A stretch of DNA of 64,000 nucleotides from a phage. The stretch lies in NCBI GenBank assembly GCA_011911785.1, contig GCA_011911785.1_4084.1; one strand, 5' to 3'. The position numbers and the translations under genes are program-made. Below the pieces are notes generated by a model. It saw nothing but the letters and a program-made list of their open reading frames with translations. It had not been told where the DNA came from and ran no database searches. How positions within the stretch are numbered: position 1 is the stretch's first letter; each line of letters begins with the position of its first letter. Shown here piece after piece: positions 3,229 to 56,879 of this stretch.

Positions 3229-3657
<429 letters not shown>

Positions 3658-3665
<8 letters not shown>

Positions 3666-4020
3666 TCTAATAGTACGTATAATGCAAGATGTTCGAAAGA
3701 ACCTTTATACAGGCAATTTTGACGATTCGAACATTAAACTATTATGTTATGATGGTTTTACCTTGGTACATCCATCTGAATCAAATAATATATACATATC
3801 ATATACTTCCAAAAATCAATTATATCAATTTGATATATATAGCACAATGGCTAAAATAACTTTGGACGTATCCAAGCAGCCTATTCTTATCGCTGTACCA
3901 GAATGCAATTACACTGAAGAATCACTGTTTCAGTACTCAATGATAAATGACATTGGCGACTTGACATTAGAAGAGATTAACGCTATACTAGATGTATCAC
4001 GTTTGATTAATGCCTACTAA
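3658..4020 (+). CDS. hypothetical protein, EE-YFQ-S module family (variant EESLFQYS)
   Basis: Overlaps upstream stop; conserved C-terminal module ...DLTLEEINAILDV. Confidence 0.6.
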
Positions 4021-4033
4021 TTTGGAGATTAAT

Positions 4034-4225
4034 ATGTTCTGGAATTTGTTATGTCTTTTTGGTCGTACCTTTGTTCTTGCAATTATTCATACACCAGGTA
4101 TTCGTAATTTTGTTTCTTATGAATTTAAGAAAAATTATCACAACAATACTGAAGTTCGTGCCACTAAAATGTGCAAAGACTTCAATGTAACAGTACCACC
4201 ATTTAAGAAGTACGAGGATGAATAA
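4034..4225 (+). CDS. small hydrophobic protein
   Basis: Internal ATG of track ORF with GGAG upstream. Confidence 0.4.
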   Translation: MFWNLLCLFGRTFVLAIIHTPGIRNFVSYEFKKNYHNNTEVRATKMCKDFNVTVPPFKKYEDE

Positions 4226-4503
4226 TGGAATTCATTGTAGCTCCTGAAGAACTCAAGACCTTTAAGTTCAAAGATAATTATACGTATTCAAATCATTCCT
4301 TGAATTCAATTCATGTAATTGCAATGGTTGCATCTGAATATAAAGATAACCCGTGTATTGATTTTAAAACCACTGATGGTGAATATACATGGGTGATCCC
4401 ACGAGATAAATATAGTTATCAAGGGGCAGTAGAAATTCGTGACTCGATTCTAAAACAAATCGAAGATGGACATACTCATCCTAAACTAAACATTCAGTAC
4501 TGA
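4225..4503 (+). CDS. hypothetical protein
   Basis: ATG with AGGATGA upstream, abuts previous stop. Confidence 0.55.
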   Translation: MEFIVAPEELKTFKFKDNYTYSNHSLNSIHVIAMVASEYKDNPCIDFKTTDGEYTWVIPRDKYSYQGAVEIRDSILKQIEDGHTHPKLNIQY

Positions 4504-4753
4504 AAATGTTATACCGATAGCTTCTGGAGCAGTACTGAATCCTCCTTTTTCTTTCAGAAGCTATCACATATTTTGTCGTAAAATGGTACTGTGAGTGGTT
4601 TGTCTTTCCATTCTCTCCAGGTCCAGTACCTATCATTGTAGTTCTGGAGAGATATAACATGTATAATGTTTTTTACCTCCTGTTTATCATTATATATGTC
4701 ACTAAACGAGTAATAACTACCCTCCCTCTAGGTTATTACTTTTGATTTTGGTA

Positions 4754-4782
4754 TTGACTTTCAATGCCGCAAATGTTATACT
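4754..4782 (+). promoter_or_regulatory. sigma70-type promoter (TTGACT-17-TATACT) followed by hairpin and T-run in the leader
   Basis: Hexamers read directly; GGCTGATTC...GAATCGGCC plus T-run lies between promoter and SD of 4833 gene. Confidence 0.5.
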
Positions 4783-4832
4783 TAAGGCTGATTCAAATTG
4801 AATCGGCCTTTTTTCTTTTTAAGGAGAACACC

Positions 4833-5228
4833 ATGAATTTGGTTGTAGAAGACGATATCTTTTCCGATGCTATTGAGTATATGTACAATCTTGTTAGACT
4901 TAATGAATTTGTACAACGTCATACATTGACACATAAGGATGGGATTATTACTGTTGGTGCATACATTAATGGATACTTAACCGAGTTTTACAATTGTGAT
5001 AACATTTTTATAACCATTGATAACATCACTACGACTAATGACATATCCATTGATTTATTCAAAGATCATATTGAAATTGATATAGACAAGATGATTGCCA
5101 TCGATATCGATCCTGTAATGTATGAGTTACAAGAAGAAATGTATGAGCAATTATGCTTTGTGTATGATTTGAGTAAAATTTCATTCTTTGACTTACGCAG
5201 AATCTGTTACGTAGTAGGTAAGTTATGA
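4833..5228 (+). CDS. hypothetical acidic protein
   Basis: ATG 7 nt after AAGGAG; track start 4764 lies inside the promoter. Confidence 0.55.
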   Translation: MNLVVEDDIFSDAIEYMYNLVRLNEFVQRHTLTHKDGIITVGAYINGYLTEFYNCDNIFITIDNITTTNDISIDLFKDHIEIDIDKMIAIDIDPVMYELQEEMYEQLCFVYDLSKISFFDLRRICYVVGKL

Positions 5229-5698
5229 CAAATATACGTGATGTATTAATGCAGTACGGTATCAGTGCTGAAATGCTTTCAGATGAAATTATTAAAAACT
5301 CTAAGATAGAATTTATGTTTAATAGACACCGTTATCCAGGTGTTTATATTAATCGATCCTGTTCATTAATTTACTTTGAATACATGGATGAATATGTTAT
5401 CATTGAAGAAATCAAACTCAATGGATGGCACTGTACAATTGAGTTAACGAAACCAAGAACCAAGAACAAAATAGTGATTAGTATTAATATCTATTACGAT
5501 ATTAGTACTGAAGATGGAGCCTCACACTTTGTTCGAGTTTTGTCATCTGATGATAATTTAAAGTTAGATTATAAATCAGAAGAAGAATACTTTCAGGAAA
5601 GTTTAATCAATGATTTAGTTTTTGATTATAACTTTTATAAAGAACTATCAAAAAACTTCGTTGAATGTATCAAACTATATGAGGAAGAGGACGAATGA
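5225..5698 (+). CDS. hypothetical protein, EE-YFQ-S module family
   Basis: ATGA overlap; C-terminal SEEEYFQESLINDL. Confidence 0.65.
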   Translation: MTNIRDVLMQYGISAEMLSDEIIKNSKIEFMFNRHRYPGVYINRSCSLIYFEYMDEYVIIEEIKLNGWHCTIELTKPRTKNKIVISINIYYDISTEDGASHFVRVLSSDDNLKLDYKSEEEYFQESLINDLVFDYNFYKELSKNFVECIKLYEEEDE

Positions 5699-6114
5699 AA
5701 AATTATAAGTTAAGTACAGAATACAATGAAATGATCATCAATGCACTTGATAATCATGGTGAGTTTCGTTATCCAGGTGAAGGATTGAACGTTTACTTCG
5801 GAGATGAAAACTGGTGCTATCTGAATAATGGTGTTCTGACTATCCATATTCAGGATATTAAAAGTGATGTATCATTTGGAATTCACCTAGTTCCCGGTAC
5901 ATTGGTTAATGACGCACGTATCAATGTTATTGTCAATGAGAACGAATTCTTTCATGATGATTTTGAAGATGTTAAAATGGCAGCTAGTAAGATGTATACT
6001 ACTGAAGAAGAGTACTTTCAGGATAGTACTGTGAAAGATATGCGAATCCCTTATGAGTTGATGGTTTCAGTACAGAAATTTATTGAGGATTTCAGATGCG
6101 ATTTGATCAAGTAG
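5695..6114 (+). CDS. hypothetical protein, EE-YFQ-S module family
   Basis: ATGA overlap; C-terminal TEEEYFQDS. Confidence 0.65.
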   Translation: MKNYKLSTEYNEMIINALDNHGEFRYPGEGLNVYFGDENWCYLNNGVLTIHIQDIKSDVSFGIHLVPGTLVNDARINVIVNENEFFHDDFEDVKMAASKMYTTEEEYFQDSTVKDMRIPYELMVSVQKFIEDFRCDLIK

Positions 6115-6563
6115 TTAATCGTGAGTACTTGGGTCGTATGGTGGGTGCTGCAATTGACATGATGGTAAAAAAGATGTGCCGTTATCATCCATCACAATGG
6201 AATGCTTCATATAGCATTGAGATATATGCATATAAACTTCATGGGGCTGCAACTTCATTTGAGAAAATTCACTCATTGAGGCTTCACATGTACAGGGGAA
6301 CCGAACGTACATACACTGTAATTGTGAATTCCGGTGGTGTTACATTACATTTAACACCATTTAATGCTGTTAATTTGGATTTAAGTTCAGTTATTGAGAG
6401 CACAGAAATCTGTCACATTGAAGTTGGTGCTAATTATCATCCATTAACCGAAGAACAGTACTTCCAGATTCAAACTCTACATGATATCCATGACTTGACA
6501 TATGAAGAAATTCGTGATTTAATAAGATTAAGTGCAATGATTCCAAATAAGGGTACAGTGTGA
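6096..6563 (+). CDS. hypothetical protein, EE-YFQ-S module family
   Basis: C-terminal TEEQYFQIQTLHDIHDLTYEEIRDLIRL. Confidence 0.65.
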   Translation: MRFDQVVNREYLGRMVGAAIDMMVKKMCRYHPSQWNASYSIEIYAYKLHGAATSFEKIHSLRLHMYRGTERTYTVIVNSGGVTLHLTPFNAVNLDLSSVIESTEICHIEVGANYHPLTEEQYFQIQTLHDIHDLTYEEIRDLIRLSAMIPNKGTV

Positions 6564-6666
6564 ACGACCACATAACTGTCTGATTTGAATGGGTTGACAT
6601 TTAACCAATGTAAAAGAATTGTTTCTATATGTAATCGAATTACATATGAGTACACGGAGATATAAA

Positions 6667-7113
6667 ATGGCATTTGGTAACATTGAAGAAGTACAACTAG
6701 TATTTGAAAACTGTGAAGTTCAAAACTTCAAGTTCACTGACATTCTGTACATGTATGTTGGTGATGAATCGCAACGTGCATATCGTTATGCTAATGGTTT
6801 GTCAATTGAATCAGTACTGAAGAAGTTTGCTATTGTCTTTAAGAAAGACACGGAGGCTGATTTTTACAACGGAACTTCATTGGTAGATCGCCTGTCAGAG
6901 CGTGATGTTACTCATGTTGTGTTCTTCGGTGCAAATGACAAAATGGCATCATATGTCATTGACTGGGGTGAATATGATTCATGTAATATGCAGTACTCAA
7001 TCAATCAGAGGTTGCAATTTACACCTGATGGACATATCATCTTCACAAGCAGTACAGAAGATATGATTAAGATTGATGCAGAAGAGATTGATTCTTTTGC
7101 GAGGTACATGTAA
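6667..7113 (+). CDS. hypothetical protein
   Basis: ATG after GGAGATATAAA. Confidence 0.55.
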   Translation: MAFGNIEEVQLVFENCEVQNFKFTDILYMYVGDESQRAYRYANGLSIESVLKKFAIVFKKDTEADFYNGTSLVDRLSERDVTHVVFFGANDKMASYVIDWGEYDSCNMQYSINQRLQFTPDGHIIFTSSTEDMIKIDAEEIDSFARYM

Positions 7114-7577
7114 TGCGTCCAGTACTGAAAGATATTAAATCCAGGAAATATTTTCCTGGGTTTATGGAGTACATCATTGGGTTAGCTGAATCCAAGACTG
7201 GAAATAAAATTGATATCCAACTAGGTAATGTACTTATTTGTGCAAGATCTTATCGTAATAATTTCATGGACATTTTTGAAAGATCCAATTCGATTCTTGC
7301 ATCTCTTGATTTAGAGGGCTATTTAAATGCTAAATTCGTATTGGATATATACAGTCATGGGTTTTCAATAAGACCTTATAATTCACATTACAATGATGAT
7401 CCCAAAAACTTCTTTGTGCATGTAGAAAATGTTGACCAATTCACTGACCTTAGTGATGAAAGTTACTTTCAGATGCAGGTGGCATATGACCTACAGGACT
7501 TGACACGTCAAGAAATCAATGCTATCCTCTATGTATGTTCTAAATTGAAAGAAAATGAGGTAAGCGGTCGTGTCTAA
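7113..7577 (+). CDS. hypothetical protein, EE-YFQ-S module family (variant SDESYFQMQ)
   Basis: TAATG overlap; conserved C-terminal module. Confidence 0.65.
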   Translation: MRPVLKDIKSRKYFPGFMEYIIGLAESKTGNKIDIQLGNVLICARSYRNNFMDIFERSNSILASLDLEGYLNAKFVLDIYSHGFSIRPYNSHYNDDPKNFFVHVENVDQFTDLSDESYFQMQVAYDLQDLTRQEINAILYVCSKLKENEVSGRV

Positions 7578-7998
7578 TACAGCAAAGATTAAAGTTCATT
7601 TTCGTGACACATGGAAAGACGTAGATACTGGTAACGTACTAAATGTAGAATACAGTACAGAAACAGTTCATGCCGATGATATGGGAACGGCTAAAGCTCA
7701 AGCACAGAAACTGAAAGAAACCGAAGGTGTTGCCATTTTTGAAGGGGTTGAGCATACTCGTGAATGTATCAATGTAGATGTGATTACTGAAAATGTCACA
7801 GTACTATCAAAGGAACAGATGTTTGATTTCATTTTAAATCACACTGTATCTATTACACCAGACAACACACTTTGGACCAAAACTGATGGCACAAAGGTAC
7901 GTAATAAGTACAAAGTTATAATTGATGGTATTAACTATCAGGGTTATGACCTGGTAGATGCAATAAATGAACATACTAGTAAGAGTAGAGGTTATTGA
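7570..7998 (+). CDS. hypothetical protein
   Basis: ORF with short overlap to neighbours. Confidence 0.55.
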   Translation: MSNTAKIKVHFRDTWKDVDTGNVLNVEYSTETVHADDMGTAKAQAQKLKETEGVAIFEGVEHTRECINVDVITENVTVLSKEQMFDFILNHTVSITPDNTLWTKTDGTKVRNKYKVIIDGINYQGYDLVDAINEHTSKSRGY

Positions 7999-8324
7999 AA
8001 ATGTATGCTATAATTATCACTGTAATATGTTGTGCTACTATAATCATCTGCCGTTGTATTGAAAAGAATGCACACATTCGTGGTATGGAAATTGAAAAAG
8101 AACTATATACTGAAAACATAGCAGAAAAGAAACCACAATCTCCATATAAACTTCAGAGAGATATGCATAATGAGTCAAAAACATGGGGTTATTGCATTAC
8201 TCAAAATGGCAGTCGTCTAACATCAAGTTCTGGACATTATCAAATCATCCATAACATTGATGAAGCAAAAGAACTTGTTTGGGAACTAGAGGATCTTGGT
8301 GGCTATGAAAGAACGAAATTTTGA
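7995..8324 (+). CDS. hypothetical protein with N-terminal transmembrane segment
   Basis: ATGA overlap; Cys-rich hydrophobic N-terminus. Confidence 0.5.
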   Translation: MKMYAIIITVICCATIIICRCIEKNAHIRGMEIEKELYTENIAEKKPQSPYKLQRDMHNESKTWGYCITQNGSRLTSSSGHYQIIHNIDEAKELVWELEDLGGYERTKF

Positions 8325-8508
8325 AATTTACAAAACAATTCAGGAATTAAACGTAAAGCATGATATAATGCTAGATGTAGACAATAAGATTGCTTACATG
8401 AAAAAAGAAACTGTTTCAATGCTTCAGAGATTTTCACAAAAAGCATTTTTAATGAAGTTCTGTGCAGATGAGCATCTCACGGGACGAAAACTCTATAACG
8501 AGGCATAA
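8296..8508 (+). CDS. hypothetical protein
   Basis: ORF in tight array. Confidence 0.45.
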   Translation: MVAMKERNFEIYKTIQELNVKHDIMLDVDNKIAYMKKETVSMLQRFSQKAFLMKFCADEHLTGRKLYNEA

Positions 8509-8509
8509 T

Positions 8510-8851
8510 ATGGATTTAAGCTCAACAATTAATTTTTTGAGTGATAATTACGAAAAGGTCATATCAAGGGGTGGTATTATTATCCACCCTGTAACAAATG
8601 AAATGTTCATGGTTCGCTTTGATGCAAATTCATATGACCAAGTACTTGTAATATCACAATTTATCGATTATAATGAAGTTGTTCAATTTTGCTGTACTGA
8701 ATTCGGAATCTATCTTAAAGATGCGGAAACTAATGAGATTGGTCATTACTTATATCAAACTCTGATGGTTACTCTAGATTTTGGACTTACTTTCGAAAAT
8801 CTGGTACAATGTCACTATATGTTTAAAAACTTTCCCGCGTCTGGGAATTAA
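8510..8851 (+). CDS. hypothetical protein (weak similarity to EE-YFQ-S C-terminal module: LTFENLVQ)
   Basis: Internal ATG with GAGG upstream. Confidence 0.5.
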   Translation: MDLSSTINFLSDNYEKVISRGGIIIHPVTNEMFMVRFDANSYDQVLVISQFIDYNEVVQFCCTEFGIYLKDAETNEIGHYLYQTLMVTLDFGLTFENLVQCHYMFKNFPASGN

Positions 8852-8861
8852 TGGAGTTCAA

Positions 8862-9704
8862 ATGTCAAACATTATCGTATTCAAAACTGTATCATTCAAT
8901 AAAGATCTTTATTCTCATTCTTATGTGTCTTCCAATAATCTCATCATTGAGTTGACAAATGGGGCAACGTTGGCGGTAGAATTCGATTCTAGTCTTGAAT
9001 CCAACGCTGCACTAAAAGAACTAGCAATGGTATTAAATGGTGAACCAGTAAACAAATCCAAACCAACTGATGGGTTGGATATGTTGGTCAATAAGATCCT
9101 AAATGGCAAATCTTCTGAAATTGTTGAACTTCTTAAAAATTGTACTGATAAAATCACTGAAACTGTTAGTACTGCAAAATCTAAGGCTGAAGATAAGCTT
9201 TATGAAGAAGCATTTAAAGTCGTTGGTGCAGCAGCAGAATCTAAGTTAAATGGTATGATTAATAATCTTGACCAAGTGCTGTCTCATATGTTCACAAAAG
9301 AATATGAAACTGAAGAACCTGAATCCCAAGAACAACCTTCCAAAAAAGAAGATGTAAAATCTAAAGTGAAATCCGCATTTACTGGTGCTAAAAAGAAATT
9401 TGGTCTATCTGAAGATATCTTTGGATATTCTGATACCACAGCACAAACCGACGATGATTCACAGTCAGATGATATTCTGATTGGTGATATGCTTGATCGT
9501 CAGTTGCGTGCTGAAATTTCAGCATTCGTTGACAGTGTTGTTAGTTCTGAACGTGCACAAGATATGTTCGAAAGTATCAGTAAGAATTTTGGTGAAGAAG
9601 AATCGAAAGCTGCTATTGATGGATTTAAAAATCTAATTTATTCCGTTGCAGTGCAGCACCAAGATAAAACATTAGAATATGTGATTCGCAATTACTTTAT
9701 GTAA
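8862..9704 (+). CDS. hypothetical acidic protein
   Basis: ATG with GGAG upstream; followed by terminator. Confidence 0.55.
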   Translation: MSNIIVFKTVSFNKDLYSHSYVSSNNLIIELTNGATLAVEFDSSLESNAALKELAMVLNGEPVNKSKPTDGLDMLVNKILNGKSSEIVELLKNCTDKITETVSTAKSKAEDKLYEEAFKVVGAAAESKLNGMINNLDQVLSHMFTKEYETEEPESQEQPSKKEDVKSKVKSAFTGAKKKFGLSEDIFGYSDTTAQTDDDSQSDDILIGDMLDRQLRAEISAFVDSVVSSERAQDMFESISKNFGEEESKAAIDGFKNLIYSVAVQHQDKTLEYVIRNYFM

Positions 9705-9712
9705 TGAGAACG

Positions 9713-42971: not shown

Positions 42972-43016
42972 ATATCCTCCTTTATTCATTATATTATATT
43001 TAATCAAAAAAGAAAA

Positions 43017-43035
43017 GCCAGTACAGAGTACTGGC
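43017..43035 (-). terminator. intrinsic terminator (GCCAGTAC-NNN-GTACTGGC), array cassette
   Basis: Perfect 8-bp stem followed on the minus strand by a T-rich run. Confidence 0.6.
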
Positions 43036-43046
43036 ATTTAAAATAA

Positions 43047-44222
43047 TCAAAATGTAGGAAGTTTGAATTCTCTCATAACAGATGAACTGCTTGCAGATAC
43101 ATTATCTGGTGATTTCCCTGCGTAGTATAATTTATTATCAATGAACATATACAATGTTGCATCATTTCCTGCTACAAGCGATTCACTTTTCTTAAATTTA
43201 ACACCACTAGGTAAAATTGCTTCAACAAATGAACCTGATTCTCGTGTAGTATTATTTGCCAATTGACCATTGTTATTATAACCAGTACTATAAATTTTAC
43301 CTGAACTATAATATACGAGTCCACGAGTACTAGTGTTTTCTATTCGAATGAATTCACTATCATCTGGAACTGTCGTTGATAGTACTGGGTTTAACTTATA
43401 AGCAGATGATACATTATTATTACCCAATTGACCATAACCTTGAAAGCCTAGTGTATACATAGGACATGATTCTGGTGTACCTTTTGTTATAATACCAATA
43501 TAATTCGTACTACAAAAAATGTCTATTACTTCTGTAATAGGTGTACCCTTATATTGAACCCAAGGGAATACATACGATTGTTGCTTACCATTTCCCAAAG
43601 TACCGGAAGTTGTTGTCCCAGTACGCCACATTGTATCATCAAGTTTAATAATCCAGTTAGCTGTCGTTATCGATGAACAGAATTTTTTAACATTATCCAC
43701 TAAAAATGTAAATTGATTATAATATGATGCAGTGTTTATACCAAACTTAGCACCAGTATTATCACCTAACAAATATAAACTATTATCTGTACCTAAAATC
43801 AAAGCATAATCATAACCCACGTATATATCTTTAATTCTTGAAATTCCAAATTGTGTAAAATAGCTTGTACATTCTGTGAATGTTGTTATATTATTGGTTG
43901 TATTATTACCCAGCCATTTATCTAAACCACTATAAAAGAATCTATCATCATTTGTGCGTATTAGACAAAAAGCGTTCATTGTACTGCACCAAAAATCTTT
44001 AACATTGCTATATATTTTTGTCCATTCAGTTAGTGGATTAGTATGACCTAAACCAAAAATTCCACCATTCTGAAGACCAATAGCCCATATTGAACCATTT
44101 TTATCAAGCATCATTGTACATGTATGTGAATAACCACCCGATGGTGTAACTAATTTAACAAAATTGGGAATATATGGTAAAACTTTATTTCCATAATCCA
44201 ACATTCTAACAAAAGGTAACAT
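43047..44222 (-). CDS. beta-propeller family protein, MLPFVRMLDYGN N-terminal module
   Basis: Conserved start context and N-terminus. Confidence 0.65.
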   Translation of the reverse strand: MLPFVRMLDYGNKVLPYIPNFVKLVTPSGGYSHTCTMMLDKNGSIWAIGLQNGGIFGLGHTNPLTEWTKIYSNVKDFWCSTMNAFCLIRTNDDRFFYSGLDKWLGNNTTNNITTFTECTSYFTQFGISRIKDIYVGYDYALILGTDNSLYLLGDNTGAKFGINTASYYNQFTFLVDNVKKFCSSITTANWIIKLDDTMWRTGTTTSGTLGNGKQQSYVFPWVQYKGTPITEVIDIFCSTNYIGIITKGTPESCPMYTLGFQGYGQLGNNNVSSAYKLNPVLSTTVPDDSEFIRIENTSTRGLVYYSSGKIYSTGYNNNGQLANNTTRESGSFVEAILPSGVKFKKSESLVAGNDATLYMFIDNKLYYAGKSPDNVSASSSSVMREFKLPTF

Positions 44223-44266
44223 ATTCCCTCCTTTATTCATTATACTATATTTAATCAAAAAGAAAT

Positions 44267-44285
44267 GCCAGCATCAAGTACTGGC
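44267..44285 (-). terminator. intrinsic terminator, array cassette (imperfect)
   Basis: GCCAGCATCAAGTACTGGC hairpin. Confidence 0.45.
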
Positions 44286-44292
44286 GAAATTA

Positions 44293-45483
44293 TTACAATT
44301 GTCTAGGTGTATCCAGAACATATCTATTTGTACTAGGACCACCATCATCATACGTTCCGGTTGAATATATATTTTTCATATCAGCAGTTAAAAATGTACG
44401 ATACGAACCTCTATATATTTTTATTTTATCATACATAGAATATGTTATTTGTGCTGGCAGTGGACATGCAGTAAATCTACCAATAGTAACATTAGAACCA
44501 ACACCCAATGTACCAGCATAACTACTCTCATTTAAACCAGTTGCATATACACCAGTACTCGTAACTAGTATACTAGATTGTGTTGGATATCCAGTATGGA
44601 TTGAATACAACGTGCCAGTTGGTAGAGTAGTACTATTATTTCCTAATACTGCTAGTGCTGTACTAGTCGTAGTGTTATTACCCCATGCACCATTCCTAGC
44701 TAAACCACCCACAAGGAACTGGCGTGCTCCTGTACTTGGATTTTCAACTAAAGCACTGACCGCACCACTTGAACAACCAGTGTATTGTAACGTTTTTGTA
44801 TATGTTGTACTTGGCTGATATAAAGTATATTCATTATAGGGAGTCCATGTGGTACTGGTACTTATACCTGACGTACCACCACCAATATATAAATTATTTT
44901 GTGTATCAAAAAACATTACACAGTTATTTGTTGACTGTATTTGTGCAATATCAACATTAGGCGTGACAGCTTTTACAAATGATCCATCTGTTATTTGTTG
45001 AGTACTACCAGTACCATCAGCGAATTGTCTAGCCCCACTCCAACCAGTACTCCATATTGTATTATTATCCATTAATACCGTAAACCACGTAGTACCTCCA
45101 TACATCTGTTTAATTGAAGTACTTGAACTTTGCGTGTACAAATTTTCAATATATTGGTTATAACTTAAAAACGTAGTAGTACTAGTTGGTAAACCAATAT
45201 GATCACCATATCCACAATAAAAATAATTTGAGTCATTATCTTTTACTAATAAAGTTCCTTGTGTAACCCAGCAATCATTAACGTTTTCTCTAATTAATGT
45301 CCATGATTTTAATGCAGTGTTGTTTCCCCTCCCAAATTTCCCAAAACTATTATCCCCACGTGCATATAGTTGACCATCCGTATACAGAACAACAACATCT
45401 AAATCAGTTGGGATTATTTTCTTAATTTGAAGTGGTACTGGGGTAATATTCCCATAATCAAATAATCTAACAAAAGGTAACAT
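44293..45483 (-). CDS. beta-propeller family protein, MLPFVRLFDYGN N-terminal module
   Basis: Conserved start context and N-terminus. Confidence 0.65.
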   Translation of the reverse strand: MLPFVRLFDYGNITPVPLQIKKIIPTDLDVVVLYTDGQLYARGDNSFGKFGRGNNTALKSWTLIRENVNDCWVTQGTLLVKDNDSNYFYCGYGDHIGLPTSTTTFLSYNQYIENLYTQSSSTSIKQMYGGTTWFTVLMDNNTIWSTGWSGARQFADGTGSTQQITDGSFVKAVTPNVDIAQIQSTNNCVMFFDTQNNLYIGGGTSGISTSTTWTPYNEYTLYQPSTTYTKTLQYTGCSSGAVSALVENPSTGARQFLVGGLARNGAWGNNTTTSTALAVLGNNSTTLPTGTLYSIHTGYPTQSSILVTSTGVYATGLNESSYAGTLGVGSNVTIGRFTACPLPAQITYSMYDKIKIYRGSYRTFLTADMKNIYSTGTYDDGGPSTNRYVLDTPRQL

Positions 45484-45529
45484 ATATTCCTCCTTTATTC
45501 ATTATACTATATTTACCCCAAAAAGAAAT

Positions 45530-45548
45530 GCCAGTATCAAGTACTGGC
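45530..45548 (-). terminator. intrinsic terminator, array cassette
   Basis: GCCAGTATCAAGTACTGGC hairpin. Confidence 0.5.
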
Positions 45549-45554
45549 CTATAT

Positions 45555-46724
45555 TTAAACTGGTGAATCTAATACAAATTCTAAACTACTAATGCCACCA
45601 TATGTGACATTTGTCCCTGTGCTATATACAAAATTACCATCAGTTATATAAGTTCGGTTATACCCACCTGCCATCTGCGACTTACTATAATCAAACCCAT
45701 CAGGAACGATTGCTTTGGTATATACTAATGCATTATTAGATGTACCAATACCTAACATACCAGCTTCTGAAGATTTATTGTAGCCGCAACAATATATACC
45801 ATCTGTTGTAGCAATAACTTGGTTATAATATGAAGTAATGTTAGCAATGCTTACTACATCACCGGGTGGCATTAGTGAAGCAGTTTGAACCTCAAATGCT
45901 CTATAATCACTGAGAGAACCATTTATCCCATCTGCTTGTGCACCAAATATTCTCGAACCGCCATTTGCGATGATGGTTTTACCAGTGGGATCAGTACCAA
46001 TTGCCATTGCCATTGAAGTACTATTCTCCATATAGTACTTGATATTAATTGTATTTCTTAAGCTGGTAGGAGCACCATAATATATAGTATATAACTTACC
46101 TCCTGAACTTGTAACTGCATTTACTCTTCCTGTATAAAATAGCCATCCTTGGTTTGTAACATAACCGTGCATTAAATTACTTGCAAACAATTTAACAGGT
46201 AATTGATCTGCTGCGGTCGGAACAGTACTTTTGACGAATTTTCTAGCAACATTGTTAGTTGTTGTCCCATCACCCAACTGACCATCACCCCCTGCTCCAG
46301 TACTCCATATTGTTTGGTCTGTTAGTAATACACTTGTAGTCTGATAACTAACTGCTATATCTAATATTGGTAATGTTAACGTATCGAATGTTGGCATAGC
46401 AGAAGTCCATATTGATACTGCTGCCCCTGGCATACCAACAGTTGTTGAACTTCCACTGTACCATATTTCATCATTGCTTTTCTTAATAACTATCGACGTG
46501 GCTCCCATCCAAAAATCTTGAACATCAGAAGTGCTAAAAGTCCATGTAGTAACAATATTTTTGTGACCTAAACCCAAAAGACCATTTGCATTCTCACCAC
46601 GCACATATAAATCACCACTGTTTGTTAAAACAGCAACATTATAGTTGTTAGCTAGTATTTTTTTAATATTTGGTTTAGCAGGTGCAATATTCCCATACTC
46701 TAACATTCTTACAAAAGGTAACAT
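45555..46724 (-). CDS. beta-propeller family protein, MLPFVRMLEYGN N-terminal module
   Basis: Conserved start context and N-terminus; GxGGDGQLGDG-like repeats. Confidence 0.65.
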   Translation of the reverse strand: MLPFVRMLEYGNIAPAKPNIKKILANNYNVAVLTNSGDLYVRGENANGLLGLGHKNIVTTWTFSTSDVQDFWMGATSIVIKKSNDEIWYSGSSTTVGMPGAAVSIWTSAMPTFDTLTLPILDIAVSYQTTSVLLTDQTIWSTGAGGDGQLGDGTTTNNVARKFVKSTVPTAADQLPVKLFASNLMHGYVTNQGWLFYTGRVNAVTSSGGKLYTIYYGAPTSLRNTINIKYYMENSTSMAMAIGTDPTGKTIIANGGSRIFGAQADGINGSLSDYRAFEVQTASLMPPGDVVSIANITSYYNQVIATTDGIYCCGYNKSSEAGMLGIGTSNNALVYTKAIVPDGFDYSKSQMAGGYNRTYITDGNFVYSTGTNVTYGGISSLEFVLDSPV

Positions 46725-46769
46725 AATTCCTCCTTTATTCATTATATTATATTTAATCCAAATAAGAAA

Positions 46770-46788
46770 GCCAGTATCAAGTACTGGC
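46770..46788 (-). terminator. intrinsic terminator, array cassette
   Basis: GCCAGTATCAAGTACTGGC hairpin. Confidence 0.5.
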
Positions 46789-46794
46789 TTTAAT

Positions 46795-47943
46795 TCATTG
46801 TATAAATGACATATCAACTTCGGTATATCTTGTAGTGTACTGCCCAGAACTTCCACCCATTACTAGATTGGAAAAACCAGTATAAAATAACTTACCTTCA
46901 TCTGTGAGAATCAAACTACCGATGTTATTCAGTACTAAACTGTAAGAACTATTAAAATTAGCATAGGACTGGGTATAATAGAACTGATTTGTAAGATTAC
47001 CAACACCCAATTGTCCACCAGTGTTAACCCCAGTTGCAAATATCGTAGTACCAAATCTGCGAATATGCGAGGCCATATTGCCGACGCAACAATGTACATT
47101 CTGAACATCCGAATTCAATAAAGTTGGTGTTGTGTATTGCTTAAGTGTTGTGCCTGTACCGAATTCATTACCATATGATACCCCATACTGTGTACCACAA
47201 GCGTACAATTTATTATCATCTTTAATAAAAAATGTACTCTGATAACTTACATCGACATCTATAACATTAGTCTGTATTCTAACAACTCCAGTACTAGCAG
47301 TTTGATTGCCTGTCCCTAACTGATAGTAAGTGTTAATACCACAACCCCATAATGTATTATCTTCTTTTAGGTATATGTTACCAACAGCTTTTTTTACCGA
47401 TGATATGGCTTCAATCTTAACAAAGGCGTTAAATGAATTTGTATTTGTGCCATTACCAAAAGATGATCTGGTTGATGTGCTGTTTGTTCCGCAGCAATAT
47501 AAAGTACCATCAGTTGTTATCAAATTCACTTTAAGATCACTGTAACTACTCATGTATTTTATATCAGAAACATTAATACCACTGGATGTTATCCATGAAG
47601 TACAATCTGTCCACGTGTTATAATATGCACCTGAACCAGAAAACGCACTCGGACTTCCTGTTATAAACACTTTTCCAGTACCGTCTTCTTCATATAATTG
47701 ACAACCACTACTGTTATTTTCCAAAAGAACTCTTTTAACATTAGTTGCACTAAGAATAAATTTACTTGACGATACACCAGTCCCCGTACCCTGACTGACT
47801 GCTGCTGAAGCATACAAATTTTTAGTGTATGTATCATGAAAATACATAGCACTACCACCGGAATATATTTTAAAACGTGTACTAGGATCTGGTGGAATTG
47901 GTGCAATATTCCCATAATCTAACATTCTTACAAAAGGTAACAT
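46795..47943 (-). CDS. beta-propeller family protein, MLPFVRMLDYGN N-terminal module
   Basis: Conserved start context; YYQLGTGN, GGQLGVGN repeats. Confidence 0.65.
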   Translation of the reverse strand: MLPFVRMLDYGNIAPIPPDPSTRFKIYSGGSAMYFHDTYTKNLYASAAVSQGTGTGVSSSKFILSATNVKRVLLENNSSGCQLYEEDGTGKVFITGSPSAFSGSGAYYNTWTDCTSWITSSGINVSDIKYMSSYSDLKVNLITTDGTLYCCGTNSTSTRSSFGNGTNTNSFNAFVKIEAISSVKKAVGNIYLKEDNTLWGCGINTYYQLGTGNQTASTGVVRIQTNVIDVDVSYQSTFFIKDDNKLYACGTQYGVSYGNEFGTGTTLKQYTTPTLLNSDVQNVHCCVGNMASHIRRFGTTIFATGVNTGGQLGVGNLTNQFYYTQSYANFNSSYSLVLNNIGSLILTDEGKLFYTGFSNLVMGGSSGQYTTRYTEVDMSFIQ

Positions 47944-47988
47944 AATTCCTCCTTTATTCATTATATTATATTTAATCCAAATAAGAAA

Positions 47989-48007
47989 GCCAGTATCAAG
48001 TACTGGC
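47989..48007 (-). terminator. intrinsic terminator, array cassette
   Basis: GCCAGTATCAAGTACTGGC hairpin. Confidence 0.5.
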
Positions 48008-48013
48008 ATTATG

Positions 48014-49123
48014 TTATTTTGGTAAATCAATTTTAGTAAAGACTGCAACATCCTCGCTTGCACCGGGAATGGCGTAATACGTTCCAGTACTATATACATC
48101 TCCATTTTTGGTTAATATTGAAGTCAAACCATCACTAAAAAGAACATCCCTAATCTCACTAACTTCAACGGGTAATTGTAAATTTGTAGCACTATATATA
48201 GCACCAGTTTGAGAATTGTTTAATCCCAAACCACGGTTCGCCCCAACACCCTTCTGATATGTACTGGTAATTACCATTTGTGTAGCAGTATTTAATGCAG
48301 GTGAATTCGTCATAAACAACGGAGAACTATTAGGAAAAGTACTTGCAGGAACTGCACGGAATGTAGTCGTGCCTGAACTAAGAAAGTTTGGAGTTTGACC
48401 ACATACGAAATATGATGTACCATTATAGTAATTAAATGCATTACCACCAATGGCTGCATCGATTACACCAGAACTACGTAATCCCCAAGTGTTAATTTGT
48501 GTTTGGTCCCCTGTACCATGCTGCCCACTGCTATTCCATCCAGAACTATATAGCTTATTATCTAATGTAATATACATACTATCATTTGCATTAGTCATTA
48601 CTTTACGCACGTTAGTAGCACATTGAGTTAATGTGTAAATCGATGATGAGCCAATACCTAAAGAACCACGATATCCATTATCTCCTGCACCATAGAGTAC
48701 TGAACTAGTGCTAAGTACAAATATTAAACCATTTGTACATACAATATTAGCAATTTCACTCACTGGTATAGCATTGGTAAACCAATTAGTCCTTTCAACT
48801 AATATAGTACTGTAAGAAGTAGTTGTAGAAGATGAGAACCAGTACGTTTCACCCGATGTCCATATCGTATTATCATTTTTAATAATAACAAGTGTACGAC
48901 CACCCACGAAAAAATTAGAAACATCTGAACTTACTAATATCCATGAAGATACCGTGTTGTTATTACCATTTCCAGATTCACCACCTTGATTTCTACCTAT
49001 GTAATATAAATCATGTGAATCAGTCAATAAGAATTGACCTTGTGTAGAAGCACCAACTTTAATTATATTTTTAGGACCAGGTACAATATTCCCATACTCT
49101 AACATTCTAACAAAAGGTAACAT
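48014..49123 (-). CDS. beta-propeller family protein, MLPFVRMLEYGN N-terminal module
   Basis: Conserved start context and N-terminus. Confidence 0.65.
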   Translation of the reverse strand: MLPFVRMLEYGNIVPGPKNIIKVGASTQGQFLLTDSHDLYYIGRNQGGESGNGNNNTVSSWILVSSDVSNFFVGGRTLVIIKNDNTIWTSGETYWFSSSTTTSYSTILVERTNWFTNAIPVSEIANIVCTNGLIFVLSTSSVLYGAGDNGYRGSLGIGSSSIYTLTQCATNVRKVMTNANDSMYITLDNKLYSSGWNSSGQHGTGDQTQINTWGLRSSGVIDAAIGGNAFNYYNGTSYFVCGQTPNFLSSGTTTFRAVPASTFPNSSPLFMTNSPALNTATQMVITSTYQKGVGANRGLGLNNSQTGAIYSATNLQLPVEVSEIRDVLFSDGLTSILTKNGDVYSTGTYYAIPGASEDVAVFTKIDLPK

Positions 49124-49169
49124 AATTCCTCCTTTATTCATTATACTATATTTAATACAAATAAGAAAA

Positions 49170-49188
49170 GCCAGTACAGAGTACTGGC
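49170..49188 (-). terminator. intrinsic terminator, array cassette
   Basis: GCCAGTACAGAGTACTGGC hairpin. Confidence 0.6.
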
Positions 49189-49195
49189 TATTATA

Positions 49196-50338
49196 TTATT
49201 TCCACGGTAGAAGTGAATCAGGAACTCTGGTTGGTACTCTAACGGCTGGAACATTTCCAAGTTCAGGTAAACCACTCATATACAAATTGTTATTTTCATC
49301 AATTATCATTGAATAGAAATTATCAATTACGAAGCCTGAAATTCGTCTTCCTTCTAATGCATCAAGAACCATTTCGGTGAAAGTTAGTATATTTTCGGAT
49401 GTTTGATTAACACCACATGCACCATAGGTATTTCGACCACAAGTATATAACTTATTATTATTTTTAACAACACATCCATTCCCTTCGTTGTTGGATAAAC
49501 CACCCACCAACTCTATTTCACCTTGGAATGATAAATTGGGAATTAATGTACTCATTGGTACTGCTGATACTCTACCTACACCAGCTTGACCATATGCATT
49601 TGGTGAAGCAACCTTCACTGAACCATCATTAAGAAATATATATGAAGTACGGTATGTATTTACAGCTTGTATAGCATTGGTGATCGTATTGTCTTTTGTA
49701 AAACTTAATATATTTGATGTTGTTGTACTACCAGGAGCAACAGTATTTCCTGCATACCAATAGGAGCCATCATCAAGTACTAACCCAGTACTGAGCAAAG
49801 AACAGCCATAACTTTTAACATTTTCTATAGTGCTGTATCTGAACGATGTGACATTAGCTGTTGACGCGTTACCAAATACACCACCTTCGCCAGCACCACA
49901 GTAGAACCATTTTCCATTTTTTAAAAATACACGCAAATTCTGCCCAACAGCAATACCATCAATATCATCAGCACTGACACCAAAATCAGTGAAGTACTGG
50001 GTTACATCAATCCAAACCCCATTTGTATTTGTTCCGATTTGTGGCATTACTATACTAGCACCTGTGAACCAAATAGTTCCATCATTCTTAATGGCAATGG
50101 AACCAAGAACACCACCCCAGTAACGTTCAATATTATTATTCACACGGGTCCATACGGTGGATGATTGTAATGAACCATTACCACCTTGTCCAAATGAAGA
50201 TGAACCATACCAGTACAAGTCACCATTAACATGCAAATAAAAACGAGTATTATAATTTGCTTGTAATCTATTTTTAAATAGAGGTTTTGGTTCTGGTGCT
50301 TCATTTCCATACTCTAACATTCTAGCAAAAGGTAACAT
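49196..50338 (-). CDS. beta-propeller family protein, MLPFARMLEYGN; near-duplicate of 50412..51554
   Basis: Same length (380 aa) and long identical stretches with neighbour. Confidence 0.7.
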   Translation of the reverse strand: MLPFARMLEYGNEAPEPKPLFKNRLQANYNTRFYLHVNGDLYWYGSSSFGQGGNGSLQSSTVWTRVNNNIERYWGGVLGSIAIKNDGTIWFTGASIVMPQIGTNTNGVWIDVTQYFTDFGVSADDIDGIAVGQNLRVFLKNGKWFYCGAGEGGVFGNASTANVTSFRYSTIENVKSYGCSLLSTGLVLDDGSYWYAGNTVAPGSTTTSNILSFTKDNTITNAIQAVNTYRTSYIFLNDGSVKVASPNAYGQAGVGRVSAVPMSTLIPNLSFQGEIELVGGLSNNEGNGCVVKNNNKLYTCGRNTYGACGVNQTSENILTFTEMVLDALEGRRISGFVIDNFYSMIIDENNNLYMSGLPELGNVPAVRVPTRVPDSLLPWK

Positions 50339-50385
50339 AATTTCCTCCTTTATTCATTATACTATATTTAATACAAATAAGAAAA

Positions 50386-50404
50386 GCCAGTACAGAGTAC
50401 TGGC
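50386..50404 (-). terminator. intrinsic terminator, array cassette
   Basis: GCCAGTACAGAGTACTGGC hairpin. Confidence 0.6.
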
Positions 50405-50411
50405 TATTATA

Positions 50412-56851: not shown

Positions 56852-56879
56852 TTGACATTATGATTCAGTACTGTATAAT
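56852..56879 (+). promoter_or_regulatory. orphan sigma70-type promoter (TTGACA-16-TATAAT) in non-coding hub
   Basis: Consensus hexamers with no ORF downstream. Confidence 0.45.

What the first reader, a model, noticed from the sequence alone, without database searches (positions are those of the whole stretch)
4504..4832. 330-bp non-coding stretch with nested inverted repeats and an attenuator-like hairpin between promoter and gene
The region holds long inverted repeats (gatagcttctg...cagaagctatc; tctctccag...ctggagaga), then a consensus promoter followed by a hairpin and T-run before the SD of the 4833 gene. A terminator-like structure inside a leader suggests transcription attenuation or a small RNA.
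Basis: seen in the sequence. Interest (0 to 1): 0.4.

Follow-up and report, generated by a model that had tools for sequence, protein, structure and literature searches.

The report
Promoter-terminator junction between two phage operons
This 330-bp gap in a jumbo E. coli phage is a hairpin-rich junction where one early operon stops and the next starts, an arrangement already described in T4-like phages, so it is tidy but ordinary.

Summary
Window 4504-4832 has no conserved ORF. Its + strand folds into six hairpins (-90.8 kcal/mol, z = -5.1). Near the 3' end lies a sigma70-type promoter, TTGACT-17-(TG)TATACT. One base after the -10 comes a 12-bp hairpin with a U-tract, then AAGGAG and the ATG at 4833.

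The window is an Asteriusvirus jumbo coliphage, 99.6% identical to phage A4. In nine sequence variants the -10 + hairpin + U-tract block is about 90% conserved, while its neighbours are 34-56% identical. Upstream genes are 74-97% identical to phage 121Q at the protein level; downstream genes are 25-44%.

A start site 7-8 nt after the -10 falls inside the hairpin's 5' arm. That leaves a -4.7 kcal/mol stem separated from the U-tract, against -13 to -16 kcal/mol for the full stem. My best reading is a composite promoter/terminator cassette like the PeSLs of T4-type phages. It would stop read-through from upstream while its own transcripts escape, and it is preceded by decayed cassette remnants and extra hairpins.

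Classical attenuation or an sRNA is not supported: no antiterminator, no Rfam match, no separate promoter. The start site has not been mapped.

The more surprising thing I noticed is a roughly 10-fold excess of the palindrome AGTACT across the window, which samples of related genera share.

The parts
4492..4504 (.). Palindrome ATTCAGTACTGAA overlapping the stop codon (TGA 4501-4503) of gene 4225-4503; one copy of the genome-wide CAGTACTG motif
   Evidence: It is conserved in all nine variants. It is complementary over 11 nt to 4530-4540.
4489..4554 (+). Decayed direct copy of the promoter/hairpin E block (4756-4818), including a dead -10, TATACC, at 4510-4515
   Evidence: Local alignment score 41 against 16.4 +/- 3.1; 0 of 2966 genomic segments reach it. 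It is seen only in the A4-type sequence and is marginal in JNE01.
4516..4565 (+). Hairpin A: 11-14 bp stem with a 22-28 nt loop carrying GCAGTACTGAAT and CCTCC
   Evidence: -18.5 kcal/mol, z -4.4. Stem and loop sequence are conserved in 8 of 9 variants, with two one-sided changes to G.U on the + strand. It is absent in ph0011, and present in JNE01 beside a different left-hand gene. The U-tail is not conserved.
4612..4652 (+). Hairpin B, inside a roughly 90-bp stretch (about 4567-4655) found only in the A4 lineage
   Evidence: -16 kcal/mol, z -2.9. No counterpart in the other variants. No match in E. coli genomes.
4657..4699 (+). Hairpin C: inverted repeat of a TATAATG box (-10-like TATAAT at 4662-4667, no -35), loop with ACCTCC
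   Evidence: -10.2 kcal/mol, z -4.1. A homologous hairpin exists in 121Q-type sequences. TGTATAATGTTT equals the -10 context of this phage's early promoters.
4709..4750 (+). Hairpin D (4709-4740, A/U-rich stem, loop CCCTCCCTC) plus TTTTGATTTT: a weak terminator-like element and the A/T-rich tract upstream of the -35
   Evidence: -9.3 kcal/mol, z -2.9. Relatives carry a different hairpin in the same position, followed by ATTTTAG, with G.U and compensatory changes.
4750..4768 (+). Hairpin overlapping the -35 box (GGTATTGA CTT TCAATGCC)
   Evidence: -9.1 kcal/mol, z -4.2. It occupies the same alignment columns as AGAAGTT..AACTTCT in relatives, with 4 pairs changed on both sides, all in the A4-type sequence. 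The design matches the fused terminator-promoter modules elsewhere in the window.
4754..4782 (+). Sigma70-type promoter TTGACT-17-TATACT with TG extension (4774-4775)
   Evidence: TGTTATACT is invariant in nine variants, and TTGAC is kept in seven.
4784..4820 (+). Hairpin E (4784-4810) plus U-tract (4809-4820): an intrinsic terminator. The predicted start of the promoter's own transcript (4789-4791) lies in its 5' arm
   Evidence: -16.2 kcal/mol, z -6.1. 99% of cells are paired, with one compensatory pair, one U.G to U-A change and variable loops. Annotated as a terminator in G17 and UE-S1. 90% identical to 121Q.
4821..4835 (+). Shine-Dalgarno AAGGAG (4821-4826) and start codon ATG (4833-4835) of the first gene of the downstream operon
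   Evidence: A4 annotates the CDS at this position.

Best explanation
The stretch is the junction between two early, host-RNA-polymerase-transcribed operons, inside an array of fast-evolving paralogous ORFans of a jumbo coliphage (Asteriusvirus). Its last roughly 90 bp (4745-4832) form one intact composite cassette. In order, the cassette holds an A/T-rich tract, a sigma70 promoter whose -35 sits in a small hairpin, a strong intrinsic terminator (hairpin E plus U-tract) that starts 1 nt after the -10, and the ribosome-binding site and ATG of gene 4833. RNA polymerase arriving from upstream (probably from the 12/12 promoter match at 2824) transcribes both arms of hairpin E and terminates. Polymerase starting at the cassette's own promoter begins inside the 5' arm. 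Its RNA keeps only a short 5'-terminal stem that no longer touches the U-tract, so it reads on into the 4833-9700 operon. That residual stem may also protect the mRNA's 5' end. The upstream 240 bp (hairpins A-D, dead -10 boxes, a decayed copy of the cassette, a lineage-specific 90-bp insert) are remnants of recombination at such cassettes. They may also act as auxiliary terminators or 3'-end structures for the upstream mRNA. Shown here: the structures, their conservation and covariation, and the break in conservation. Inferred: promoter activity, the start site, termination, and the role in recombination.
For: Identity and setting. The window is 99.6% identical to Escherichia phage A4, and other Asteriusviruses align only as far as window 4589. 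The flanking genes are ORFans of one paralogous family, with no Pfam match and PHROGs of unknown function.

Structure. The + strand folds with z -5.1 and each hairpin is individually significant. Hairpin E is -16.2 kcal/mol with TTTTTTCTTTTT. ARNold-based annotation in G17 and the UE-S1 annotation both call it a terminator.

Conservation. The -10 + E + U-tract block is 90% identical to 121Q. The middle is 34%, the -35 region 52%, the SD 54% and the downstream gene 56%. TGTTATACTTA.GGCTGA.TC is invariant in nine variants, while the loop and the downstream leader vary. Hairpin E has one compensatory pair and one U.G to U-A change. The -35 hairpin is kept with 4 pairs changed on both sides. One-sided changes in helices A and D' are G.U on the + strand.

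Geometry. A start 7-8 nt after the -10 leaves -4.7 kcal/mol, and 3-4 unpaired nt before the U-tract, against -13.4 kcal/mol from the first base after the -10 and -15.7 to -16.2 for the whole hairpin. This holds in all variants.

Same design elsewhere in the window. Seven to eight fused terminator-promoter modules read GGGTTGACTTCGGTCAGCCC-T5GC-TATAAT. Five early promoters have transcripts that begin with a hairpin.

Boundary behaviour. Protein identity to 121Q drops from 74-97% to 25-44% across the junction. Hairpin A is missing in ph0011. In JNE01 hairpin A follows the homologue of gene 143 directly, so gene 144 is absent. The A4 lineage carries a 90-bp insert. There is a decayed duplicate of the cassette.

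Literature. PeSLs are defined by the same parts, include a subclass with the stem-loop downstream of the -10, terminate upstream transcription, and sit at indels in hyperplastic regions (PMC2839356 and PMC4122927). Relatives of this phage are reported to use RpoD-like early promoters in regions of short hypothetical genes (PMC5259590).
Against: No transcription start or 3' end has been mapped for any Asteriusvirus that I could find. If the start lay 1-4 nt after the -10, the full terminator would sit in the leader. The cassette sequence is single-copy per genome, whereas classical PeSLs are repeated sequence families of about 100 bp that fill the whole intergenic gap. Here the gap is 329 bp. 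Hairpin A is conserved in loop sequence as well as stem and lacks a conserved U-tail, which 'remnant or auxiliary terminator' does not explain. The covariation rests on only nine variants and very few independent events. The four double changes in the -35 hairpin all come from one sequence. The high conservation of the block could also reflect a bound factor, not merely promoter plus terminator.
Confidence: 0.6

Rival explanations
1. Promoter-proximal attenuator. The promoter's own transcript contains a working terminator, so most polymerases stop after about 25-35 nt. Expression of the 4833 operon is then either set low constitutively or released later by a phage antitermination factor, as lambda Q acts at PR'/tR'.
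For: A strong terminator lies between the promoter and the ribosome-binding site. The strict conservation of the -10-to-hairpin spacing would also suit a factor-loading site. A start at position 5-6 after the -10 would leave a stem of -10.7 or -6.9 kcal/mol.
Against: A modal start (7-8 nt after the -10, pyrimidine-purine rule: T4789/G4790) removes the G/C-rich base of the stem and separates what is left from the U-tract. There is no alternative antiterminator pairing, leader peptide or Rfam family. Complementarity between loop A and the 5' arm of E is 10/12 in A4 but decays in relatives (read off the sequences). Other early promoters here carry 5' hairpins without U-tracts.
Confidence: 0.15
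2. The spacer encodes a functional structured RNA. This could be part of the upstream mRNA's 3' UTR or a processed fragment. Its hairpin loops display CCUCC/ACCCUC, which resembles the 16S rRNA 3' end, and CAGUACUG. Such loops could pair with Shine-Dalgarno sequences in cis or in trans, or bind a phage or host protein.
For: There are five + strand CCTCC/CCCTC in 330 nt, the joint highest density in the window, and all lie in predicted loops. Loop A is conserved in sequence, and the UUACCCUC motifs recur in relatives. The 10-mer GAATCCTCCT recurs in an ORF-free, promoter-driven stretch at 56.9 kb. G.U changes point to + strand RNA.
Against: There is no independent promoter: the TATAAT at 4662 lacks a -35 (read off). 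There is no Rfam match. The loops do not covary with the downstream ribosome-binding site, which is AAGGAG in A4 and AGGTGA in 121Q. UE-S1 has lost two of the motifs and ph0011 has lost hairpin A. The motifs may simply be the complement of relic gene starts, since GAGGGTAA-N8-ATG is kept on the minus strand in relatives.
Confidence: 0.1
3. The conserved upstream part works at the DNA level. The two CAGTACTG palindromes (4494-4503 and 4529-4540, 36 bp apart) would be binding sites for whatever factor recognises the genome-wide AGTACT motif, for example a regulator that silences early promoters. The hairpins would then be incidental.
For: CAGTACTG is the commonest 8-mer in the window (57 found, 0.67 expected). 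It fills the spacer of many early promoters just before the -10. Both copies here are kept in all variants that retain hairpin A. All four AGTACT sites in a 1.7-kb alignment are conserved in 121Q.
Against: Neither copy overlaps the promoter at 4754. In the WPEC3 group the second copy is TCGGTACTGA, which is no longer a palindrome but can still pair with the first copy through G.U in RNA. The stem of hairpin A changes through G.U pairs, which indicates RNA. No binding protein is known.
Confidence: 0.1
4. The gap hides small genes: a 28-aa hydrophobic peptide (4659-4745, +, GGAGAG 7 nt upstream of its ATG) or a 59-aa minus-strand ORF (4660-4481).
For: Both ORFs exist. The 28-aa ORF has a plausible ribosome-binding site.
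Against: Neither has any homologue outside A4 in 50,697 phage records. The region is not alignable in other Asteriusviruses. The minus-strand ORF's AGGAGG lies 15 nt from its ATG. The A4 annotators called neither ORF.
Confidence: 0.03

Closest known systems
PeSLs (promoter-early stem-loops), the composite promoter/terminator cassettes of T4-type phages (Arbiol et al. 2010, PMC2839356; Comeau et al. 2014, PMC4122927)
   Same: Both have an A/T-rich tract, a near-consensus sigma70 early promoter, a stem-loop next to or overlapping the promoter that terminates transcription from upstream, and then the SD and ATG of the next gene. One described subclass places the stem-loop downstream of the -10, and another overlaps the -35. 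Both types lie between small ORFans in hyperplastic regions, at points where close relatives differ by insertions, deletions and replacements. Degraded 'half' copies lie nearby.
   Different: The host phage is an Asteriusvirus jumbo phage, not a member of the T4-like groups in which PeSLs were described. The cassette is single-copy in sequence, not a member of a repeated family. The intergenic gap is 329 bp, with four extra hairpins, as against about 100 bp. The stem-loop is a full terminator with a U-tract that extends past the predicted start site. Promoter activity, terminator activity and mini-circle formation are untested here.
Fused terminator-promoter modules of this same genome (GGGTTGACTTCGGTCAGCCC-TTTTTGC-TATAAT, for example window 29736, 32203, 32932, 34356)
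   Same: They couple an intrinsic terminator and a sigma70 promoter within about 50 bp. The -35 box lies inside a hairpin, as with the 4750-4768 hairpin here.
   Different: In those modules the terminator precedes the -10, so the new transcript never contains it. In the finding the main terminator follows the -10 and overlaps the predicted start.
Promoter-proximal termination relieved by an antiterminator (lambda PR'-qut-tR' with Q) and leader attenuators in general
   Same: A terminator lies between a constitutive-looking promoter and the first gene.
   Different: The distance is far shorter here: 1 nt after the -10, against about 190 nt in lambda (from my own knowledge). There is no antiterminator structure, no leader peptide and no known antiterminator gene, and the start site probably lies within the stem.
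5'-terminal stem-loops that stabilise E. coli mRNAs, such as the ompA leader (Emory, Bouvet and Belasco 1992, from my own knowledge)
   Same: The predicted transcript would begin directly with a 6-bp hairpin (GAUUCA/UGAAUC). Five other early promoters in the window are followed by hairpins that start 8-12 nt after the -10.
   Different: The residual stem is weak (-4.7 kcal/mol), and no stability data exist.

Membership tests
PeSL composite promoter/terminator cassette | Sigma70-type early promoter close to consensus with a spacer of about 17 nt | tested here: met
   TTGACT-17-TATACT, 10/12, with TG extension. The -10 is invariant and the -35 is kept in 7 of 9 variants. Promoter activity itself was not tested.
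PeSL composite promoter/terminator cassette | A/T-rich tract upstream of the -35 | tested here: met
   4733-4752 is 80% A+T (read off), against 65% for the window. This is only weakly informative in an A/T-rich genome.
PeSL composite promoter/terminator cassette | Stable stem-loop next to or overlapping the promoter that can terminate upstream transcription | tested here: met
   Hairpin E is -16.2 kcal/mol (z -6.1) with a U-tract, and the -35 hairpin is -9.1 kcal/mol. There is covariation. It is annotated as a terminator in G17 and UE-S1. Termination was not measured.
PeSL composite promoter/terminator cassette | Ends with the Shine-Dalgarno sequence and start codon of the downstream gene | tested here: met
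   AAGGAG at 4821-4826 and ATG at 4833.
PeSL composite promoter/terminator cassette | Spans the whole gap from the upstream stop codon, about 100 bp in all | tested here: not met
   The gap is 329 bp. The intact cassette fills only 4745-4832, and the rest is extra hairpins and remnants.
PeSL composite promoter/terminator cassette | Member of a repeated, sequence-conserved family scattered through hyperplastic regions of the same genome | tested here: inconclusive
   The architecture recurs, but this sequence occurs once per genome, apart from a decayed copy at 4489-4554. Only 64 kb of the roughly 350-kb genome was examined.
PeSL composite promoter/terminator cassette | Sits at insertions, deletions or replacements between closely related phages, among ORFans | tested here: met
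   Megablast homology ends at 4589. Protein identity falls from 74-97% to 25-44% across the junction. There are indels in ph0011, JNE01 and A4. The flanking genes have no known function.
PeSL composite promoter/terminator cassette | Recombination between cassettes, giving excised mini-circles | not testable with these tools
   This needs inverse PCR on infected cells or phage DNA.
Intrinsic (Rho-independent) terminator | G/C-containing stem, short loop, U-tract directly after the stem | tested here: met
   Met for hairpin E: 12 pairs, 5 of them G-C, loop 3, TTTTTTCTTTTT. Hairpin D is borderline: an A/U-rich stem at -9.3 kcal/mol followed by UUUUGAUUUU. Hairpin A fails, with a 22-28 nt loop and no conserved U-tail.
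Transcription attenuator or riboswitch leader | Terminator lies within the transcribed leader of the regulated gene | tested here: inconclusive
   This depends on the start site. The predicted start (4789-4791) lies inside the 5' arm. No experimental start site is available.
Transcription attenuator or riboswitch leader | Mutually exclusive antiterminator structure, leader peptide or ligand-binding aptamer | tested here: not met
   There is no leader upstream of the hairpin. No Rfam family has an E-value below 0.6. No leader ORF exists. Pairing between loop A and the 5' arm of E is not conserved.
Small RNA gene | Own promoter and terminator bounding a conserved non-coding transcript | tested here: not met
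   The promoter-4754-to-E distance gives only about 25-30 nt. The TATAAT at 4662 has no -35. The middle of the spacer is 34% identical to 121Q.

The most novel reading that the evidence does not exclude
The spacer would be a functional RNA, not merely punctuation. It would be a chain of + strand hairpins whose loops display sequences like the 3' end of 16S rRNA (CCUCC, CCUCCUUA, ACCCUC) together with the clade-wide CAGUACUG palindrome. Such an RNA could act on Shine-Dalgarno sequences, for example to shut off early translation, or could bind the unknown factor behind the 10-fold AGTACT excess. A similar motif set occurs in an ORF-free, promoter-driven stretch at 56.9-57.0 kb.
Probability: 0.08. 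Interest if true: 0.65.

Novelty: new member of a known kind. Interest (0 to 1): 0.3.

Why it matters
It extends the composite promoter/terminator cassette, so far described in T4-type phages, to the Rak2/121Q-like jumbo phages. It also offers a clean test case of a promoter whose start site sits inside a terminator stem, so that one hairpin would insulate the upstream operon without blocking the downstream one. That bears on how these poorly annotated 350-kb genomes are split into transcription units. It also bears on how blocks of ORFans are swapped, because the cassette is a 90%-identical island between 34-56%-identical flanks. A 2026 preprint reports that promoters and terminators are widely coupled in bacteria (listed; the text could not be opened). 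On its own the finding is a routine regulatory junction.

Tried and rejected
- **Rfam.** At permissive thresholds on 4300-5000 there were only noise hits, E >= 0.6. At gathering thresholds the whole window gave only five tRNAs.
- **More sequence variants.** An IMG/VR scan for TTATACTTAAGGCTGA gave 11 loci, of which only 121Q itself was a relative. A metagenome scan for TATACTTANGGCTGANTC gave 110 loci, of which one was a true relative, identical to the G17 type. Covariation therefore rests on nine variants from GenBank phages.
- **Repeated-element idea.** AAGGCTGATTCA is no more frequent than chance (6 found, 5.2 expected). A self-BLAST of the spacer finds only short motif matches. A pattern search for hairpin-A-like loops found no second copy.
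- **Coding hypotheses.** The 28-aa and 59-aa ORFs have no homologues. The 121Q-annotated 35-aa CDS 145 is not conserved in WPEC3 or UE-S1 (read off). On the minus strand GGAGG is not followed by a conserved start or ORF. The GAGGGTAA-N8-ATG in relatives opens only 2-17 codons.
- **Antiterminator idea.** Loop A pairs with the 5' arm of E at 10/12 positions in A4, but this drops in 121Q and WPEC3.
- **Cis masking of the downstream ribosome-binding site by CCUCC loops.** There is no covariation with the SD.
- **Host or mobile-element origin of the A4-specific middle.** No match in 5,426 E. coli genomes.
- **Literature.** I found no transcript mapping for Asteriusvirus.

Full report
**Where the window comes from.** Window 3500-6500 is 99.6% identical to Escherichia phage A4 (ON286972), an Asteriusvirus jumbo myovirus of about 355 kb. 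Thirty-three further Asteriusvirus records (121Q, PBECO4, G17, Sharanji and others) match at 84-87%, but only up to window 4589, which lies inside the finding. The region lies in a run of short + strand genes downstream of a tRNA cluster. The genes on both sides (3234, 3658, 4833, 5225, 5695, 6096, 7113) are paralogous ORFans that share a C-terminal (T/S)EExYFQ...D..LTxEEI motif. They have no Pfam match, and their PHROGs have no known function. Related jumbo phages are reported to use RpoD-like early promoters in such regions of short hypothetical genes (PMC5259590).

**Checking the observation.**
- The two perfect inverted repeats are at 4516-4526/4555-4565 and 4612-4620/4644-4652.
- The promoter is TTGACT-17-TATACT (4754-4782), 10 of 12 with a TG extension.
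- A 12-bp hairpin (4784-4810) is followed by TTTTTTCTTTTT, then AAGGAG (4821-4826) and the ATG at 4833.

Three more hairpins were missed: 4657-4699, 4709-4740 followed by TTTTGATTTT, and 4750-4768 overlapping the -35. As RNA the + strand folds to -90.8 kcal/mol against -62.6 +/- 5.5 for shuffles (z -5.1). The minus strand gives z -3.3. Each hairpin alone has z between -2.9 and -6.1. The hairpins lie mostly in series, not nested. Promoter-like matches in general are no more common than in shuffled sequence, so the case for this promoter rests on conservation. The stretch is non-coding. The only ORFs (28 aa on +, 59 aa on -) have no homologue outside A4 among 50,697 phage records.

**Comparison with relatives.** I collected nine sequence variants of the spacer: A4/window, 121Q, G17, UE-S1, WPEC3, CMSTMSU, EC.P1, JNE01 and ph0011. 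Against 121Q the identity profile is uneven.

| Segment | Identity to 121Q |
|---|---|
| Upstream gene (4225-4503) | 88% |
| Stop codon to hairpin A (4504-4566) | 73% |
| Middle (4567-4745) | 34% |
| -35 region (4746-4772) | 52% |
| -10 + hairpin E + U-tract (4773-4820) | 90% |
| SD region (4821-4832) | 54% |
| Downstream gene (4833-5228) | 56% |

At the protein level, identity to 121Q falls from 74-97% upstream to 25-44% downstream. TGTTATACTTA.GGCTGA.TC and the 3' arm plus U-tract are essentially invariant. The loop of hairpin E, the promoter spacer and the leader after the U-tract all vary.

Hairpin E is paired in 99% of cells. It shows one compensatory U-A to A-U change (JNE01) and one U.G to U-A change (ph0011). 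The hairpin over the -35 is kept in the same columns although four pairs differ on both sides in the A4-type sequence. In helices A and D' the one-sided changes are G.U on the + strand, which would be A.C on the minus strand. Hairpin E itself contains a U.G pair in eight of nine variants. The structures are therefore selected, and selected on the + strand, most simply as RNA. The sample is small and the independent events are few. Scans of IMG/VR and of metagenomes added no new variants.

**How the promoter and the terminator relate.** The hairpin begins one base after the -10 in every variant. With a start site 7-8 nt after the -10, the transcript would lack the G/C-rich base of the stem. That start (T4789/G4790) is the usual distance and fits the pyrimidine-purine rule, which I cite from my own knowledge. 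What remains is GAUUCA/UGAAUC at -4.7 kcal/mol, ending 3-4 nt before the U-tract. From the first base after the -10 the value is -13.4 kcal/mol, and for the whole hairpin it is -15.7 to -16.2. The same holds for all nine variants. Transcripts from upstream should therefore terminate at E, while transcripts from the cassette's own promoter should not. The likely upstream source is the 12/12 promoter match at 2824, and there is no other strong + strand terminator before E. The next strong + strand terminator is at 9712.

A leader that begins inside the hairpin has no room for an antiterminator. The only upstream complement to the 5' arm of E, the loop of hairpin A at 10/12 in A4, decays in relatives. 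Rfam gives nothing. This is why I rate the attenuator and sRNA readings as only partly supported. They cannot be excluded without a mapped start site.

**The same design elsewhere in the genome.**
- The window holds seven or eight fused modules, GGGTTGACTTCGGTCAGCCC-TTTTTGC-TATAAT. In these the -35 is the 5' arm of a terminator stem, the U-tract is the spacer, and an extended -10 follows.
- Five early promoters are followed 8-12 nt after the -10 by a G/C-rich hairpin without a U-tract, so their transcripts start with a stem-loop.
- Among all promoter-like sites, the one in the finding has by far the most structured surroundings (-36 kcal/mol against about -15 to -25).

**Closest known kind.** PeSLs (promoter-early stem-loops) of T4-type phages are composite cassettes made of an A/T-rich tract, a sigma70 early promoter, a stem-loop that terminates upstream transcription, and the SD and ATG of the next gene. 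[quoted passage not shown] They cluster in hyperplastic regions among ORFans, sit at indels between close relatives, and are accompanied by degraded half-copies (PMC2839356 and PMC4122927).

The last roughly 90 bp of the finding meet these criteria. So does the context:
- a sharp conservation break;
- loss of hairpin A in ph0011;
- hairpin A in JNE01 following the homologue of gene 143 directly, with gene 144 absent;
- a roughly 90-bp insert (hairpin B) specific to the A4 lineage, with no match in E. coli genomes;
- a decayed direct copy of the promoter/hairpin block at 4489-4554 (score 41 against 16.4 +/- 3.1; 0 of 2966 genomic segments), seen only in the A4-type sequence.

There are three differences. 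The cassette is single-copy in sequence. The gap is 329 bp, not about 100 bp. The phage lies outside the groups in which PeSLs were described. I therefore file it as a new member of a known kind, with function inferred and not shown.

**What stays unexplained.**
- Hairpin A is conserved in loop sequence (CAGUACUGA(A)U(U)CCUCCUU) as well as in stem, yet it has no conserved U-tail.
- The + strand carries five CCTCC/CCCTC in 330 nt, the joint densest spot in the window, and all are in predicted loops.
- The 121Q loop reads CCUCCUUA, the same as the 3' end of 16S rRNA (from my own knowledge).
- These motifs may be complements of relic gene starts. Relatives keep GAGGGTAA-N8-ATG on the minus strand, followed by only 2-17 codons. 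They might instead have a function of their own. They do not covary with the downstream ribosome-binding site.

**Verdict.** The element is an ordinary but neat inter-operon junction of the PeSL type. Interest is 0.3. The genome-wide AGTACT excess, noticed in passing, is the more surprising lead.

Noticed in passing
whole window; also L002 (121Q), L021 (RaK2 100-115 kb), L022 (GAP32 100-115 kb): The palindrome AGTACT occurs 229 times against 22 expected (10.5-fold; the next palindromic hexamer is 2.7-fold). CAGTACTG is the commonest 8-mer (57 found, 0.67 expected) and TCAGTACTGA occurs 14 times against 0.09 expected. Inside ORFs there are 162 sites against 24 +/- 4 after codon shuffling, in all three frames for the + strand genes (41/36/38); minus-strand genes are skewed to one frame (33/3/11). 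Selection therefore appears to act on the nucleic acid. The excess is 8-12-fold in other Asteriusviruses, 7.1-fold in a Klebsiella phage RaK2 sample and 6.4-fold in a Cronobacter phage GAP32 sample. I found no report of it.
   Followed up: partly
window 476, 885, 1409, 19460, 56852, 60813 (promoter spacers); 58530, 59210, 60210, 60806, 63115 (-35 flank); 43.0-50.4 kb (minus-strand terminators): AGTACT is built into regulatory elements. It appears in TTGACw-N7-TCAGTACTG-TATAAT promoters, in AAAAGTACTTGCAA-N16-TATAAT promoters, and in terminator stems GCCAGTACT..GTACTGGC. There is a threefold excess in the 15 nt after stop codons. A position inside a promoter spacer would suit an operator for a dimeric regulator.
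   Followed up: partly
whole window: Several six-base palindromes are completely absent although about 6.3 copies of each are expected: CGATCG, CCATGG, CAGCTG, AGGCCT, AGCGCT and ACCGGT. CCGCGG and CCCGGG are also absent, with 1.9 expected. This is consistent with avoidance of restriction sites.
   Followed up: no
window 25449, 26820, 28109, 29736, 32203, 32932, 34356 (and 17019): A family of fused terminator-promoter modules reads GGGTTGACTTCGGTCAGCCC-TTTTTGC-TATAAT. The -35 box is the 5' arm of the terminator stem, the U-tract is the promoter spacer, and an extended -10 follows.
   Followed up: partly
window 30687, 58539, 59891, 60813, 63122: These early promoters are followed 8-12 nt after the -10 by a G/C-rich hairpin (for example GGGGAGAA..TTCTCCCC) without a U-tract, and then by the SD. 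Their mRNAs would begin with a stem-loop.
   Followed up: no
window 56200-58100: This is a stretch of about 1.9 kb without credible ORFs and with the highest AGTACT density. It holds tandem ACGGCTAA / CTAGACGG arrays at 57294-57408, a 32-nt repeat at 57239-57306, and three copies of ACTGAATTTTGGGCGTAG... It could be an origin or a terminus. The promoter at 56852 is followed by about 115 nt without an ORF that contain CCCUCC and GAAUCCUCCU and end in CCUCUUUUUUCG, which makes an sRNA candidate.
   Followed up: partly
window 3234-7577: An array of at least seven paralogous ORFans (120-157 aa) shares only a C-terminal (T/S)EExYFQ....D...LTxEEI..I motif. They have no Pfam match, and their PHROGs have no known function. 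They diverge strongly between A4 and 121Q downstream of the junction.
   Followed up: partly
L002 5075-5140 and the equivalent positions in L003, L004, L005, L007 (minus strand): In the non-A4 relatives the minus strand of the spacer keeps a canonical gene start, GAGGGTAA-N7-8-ATGAA, that opens only 2-17 codons (MN*, MNK*, MNHEGDIIIL*, MNLRVISLYVKSDSFYT*). It looks like the relic of an inverted gene start, or like a mini-ORF (read off).
   Followed up: no
window 43000-50450, minus strand: A series of minus-strand genes ends in near-identical terminators (AAGCCAGTACTTGATACTGGCTT / AATAGCCAGTACTCTGTACTGGCTTTT). Each is followed by the same TAAATATAGTATAATGAATAAAGGAGG leader, which suggests a tandemly duplicated gene cassette.
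   Followed up: no
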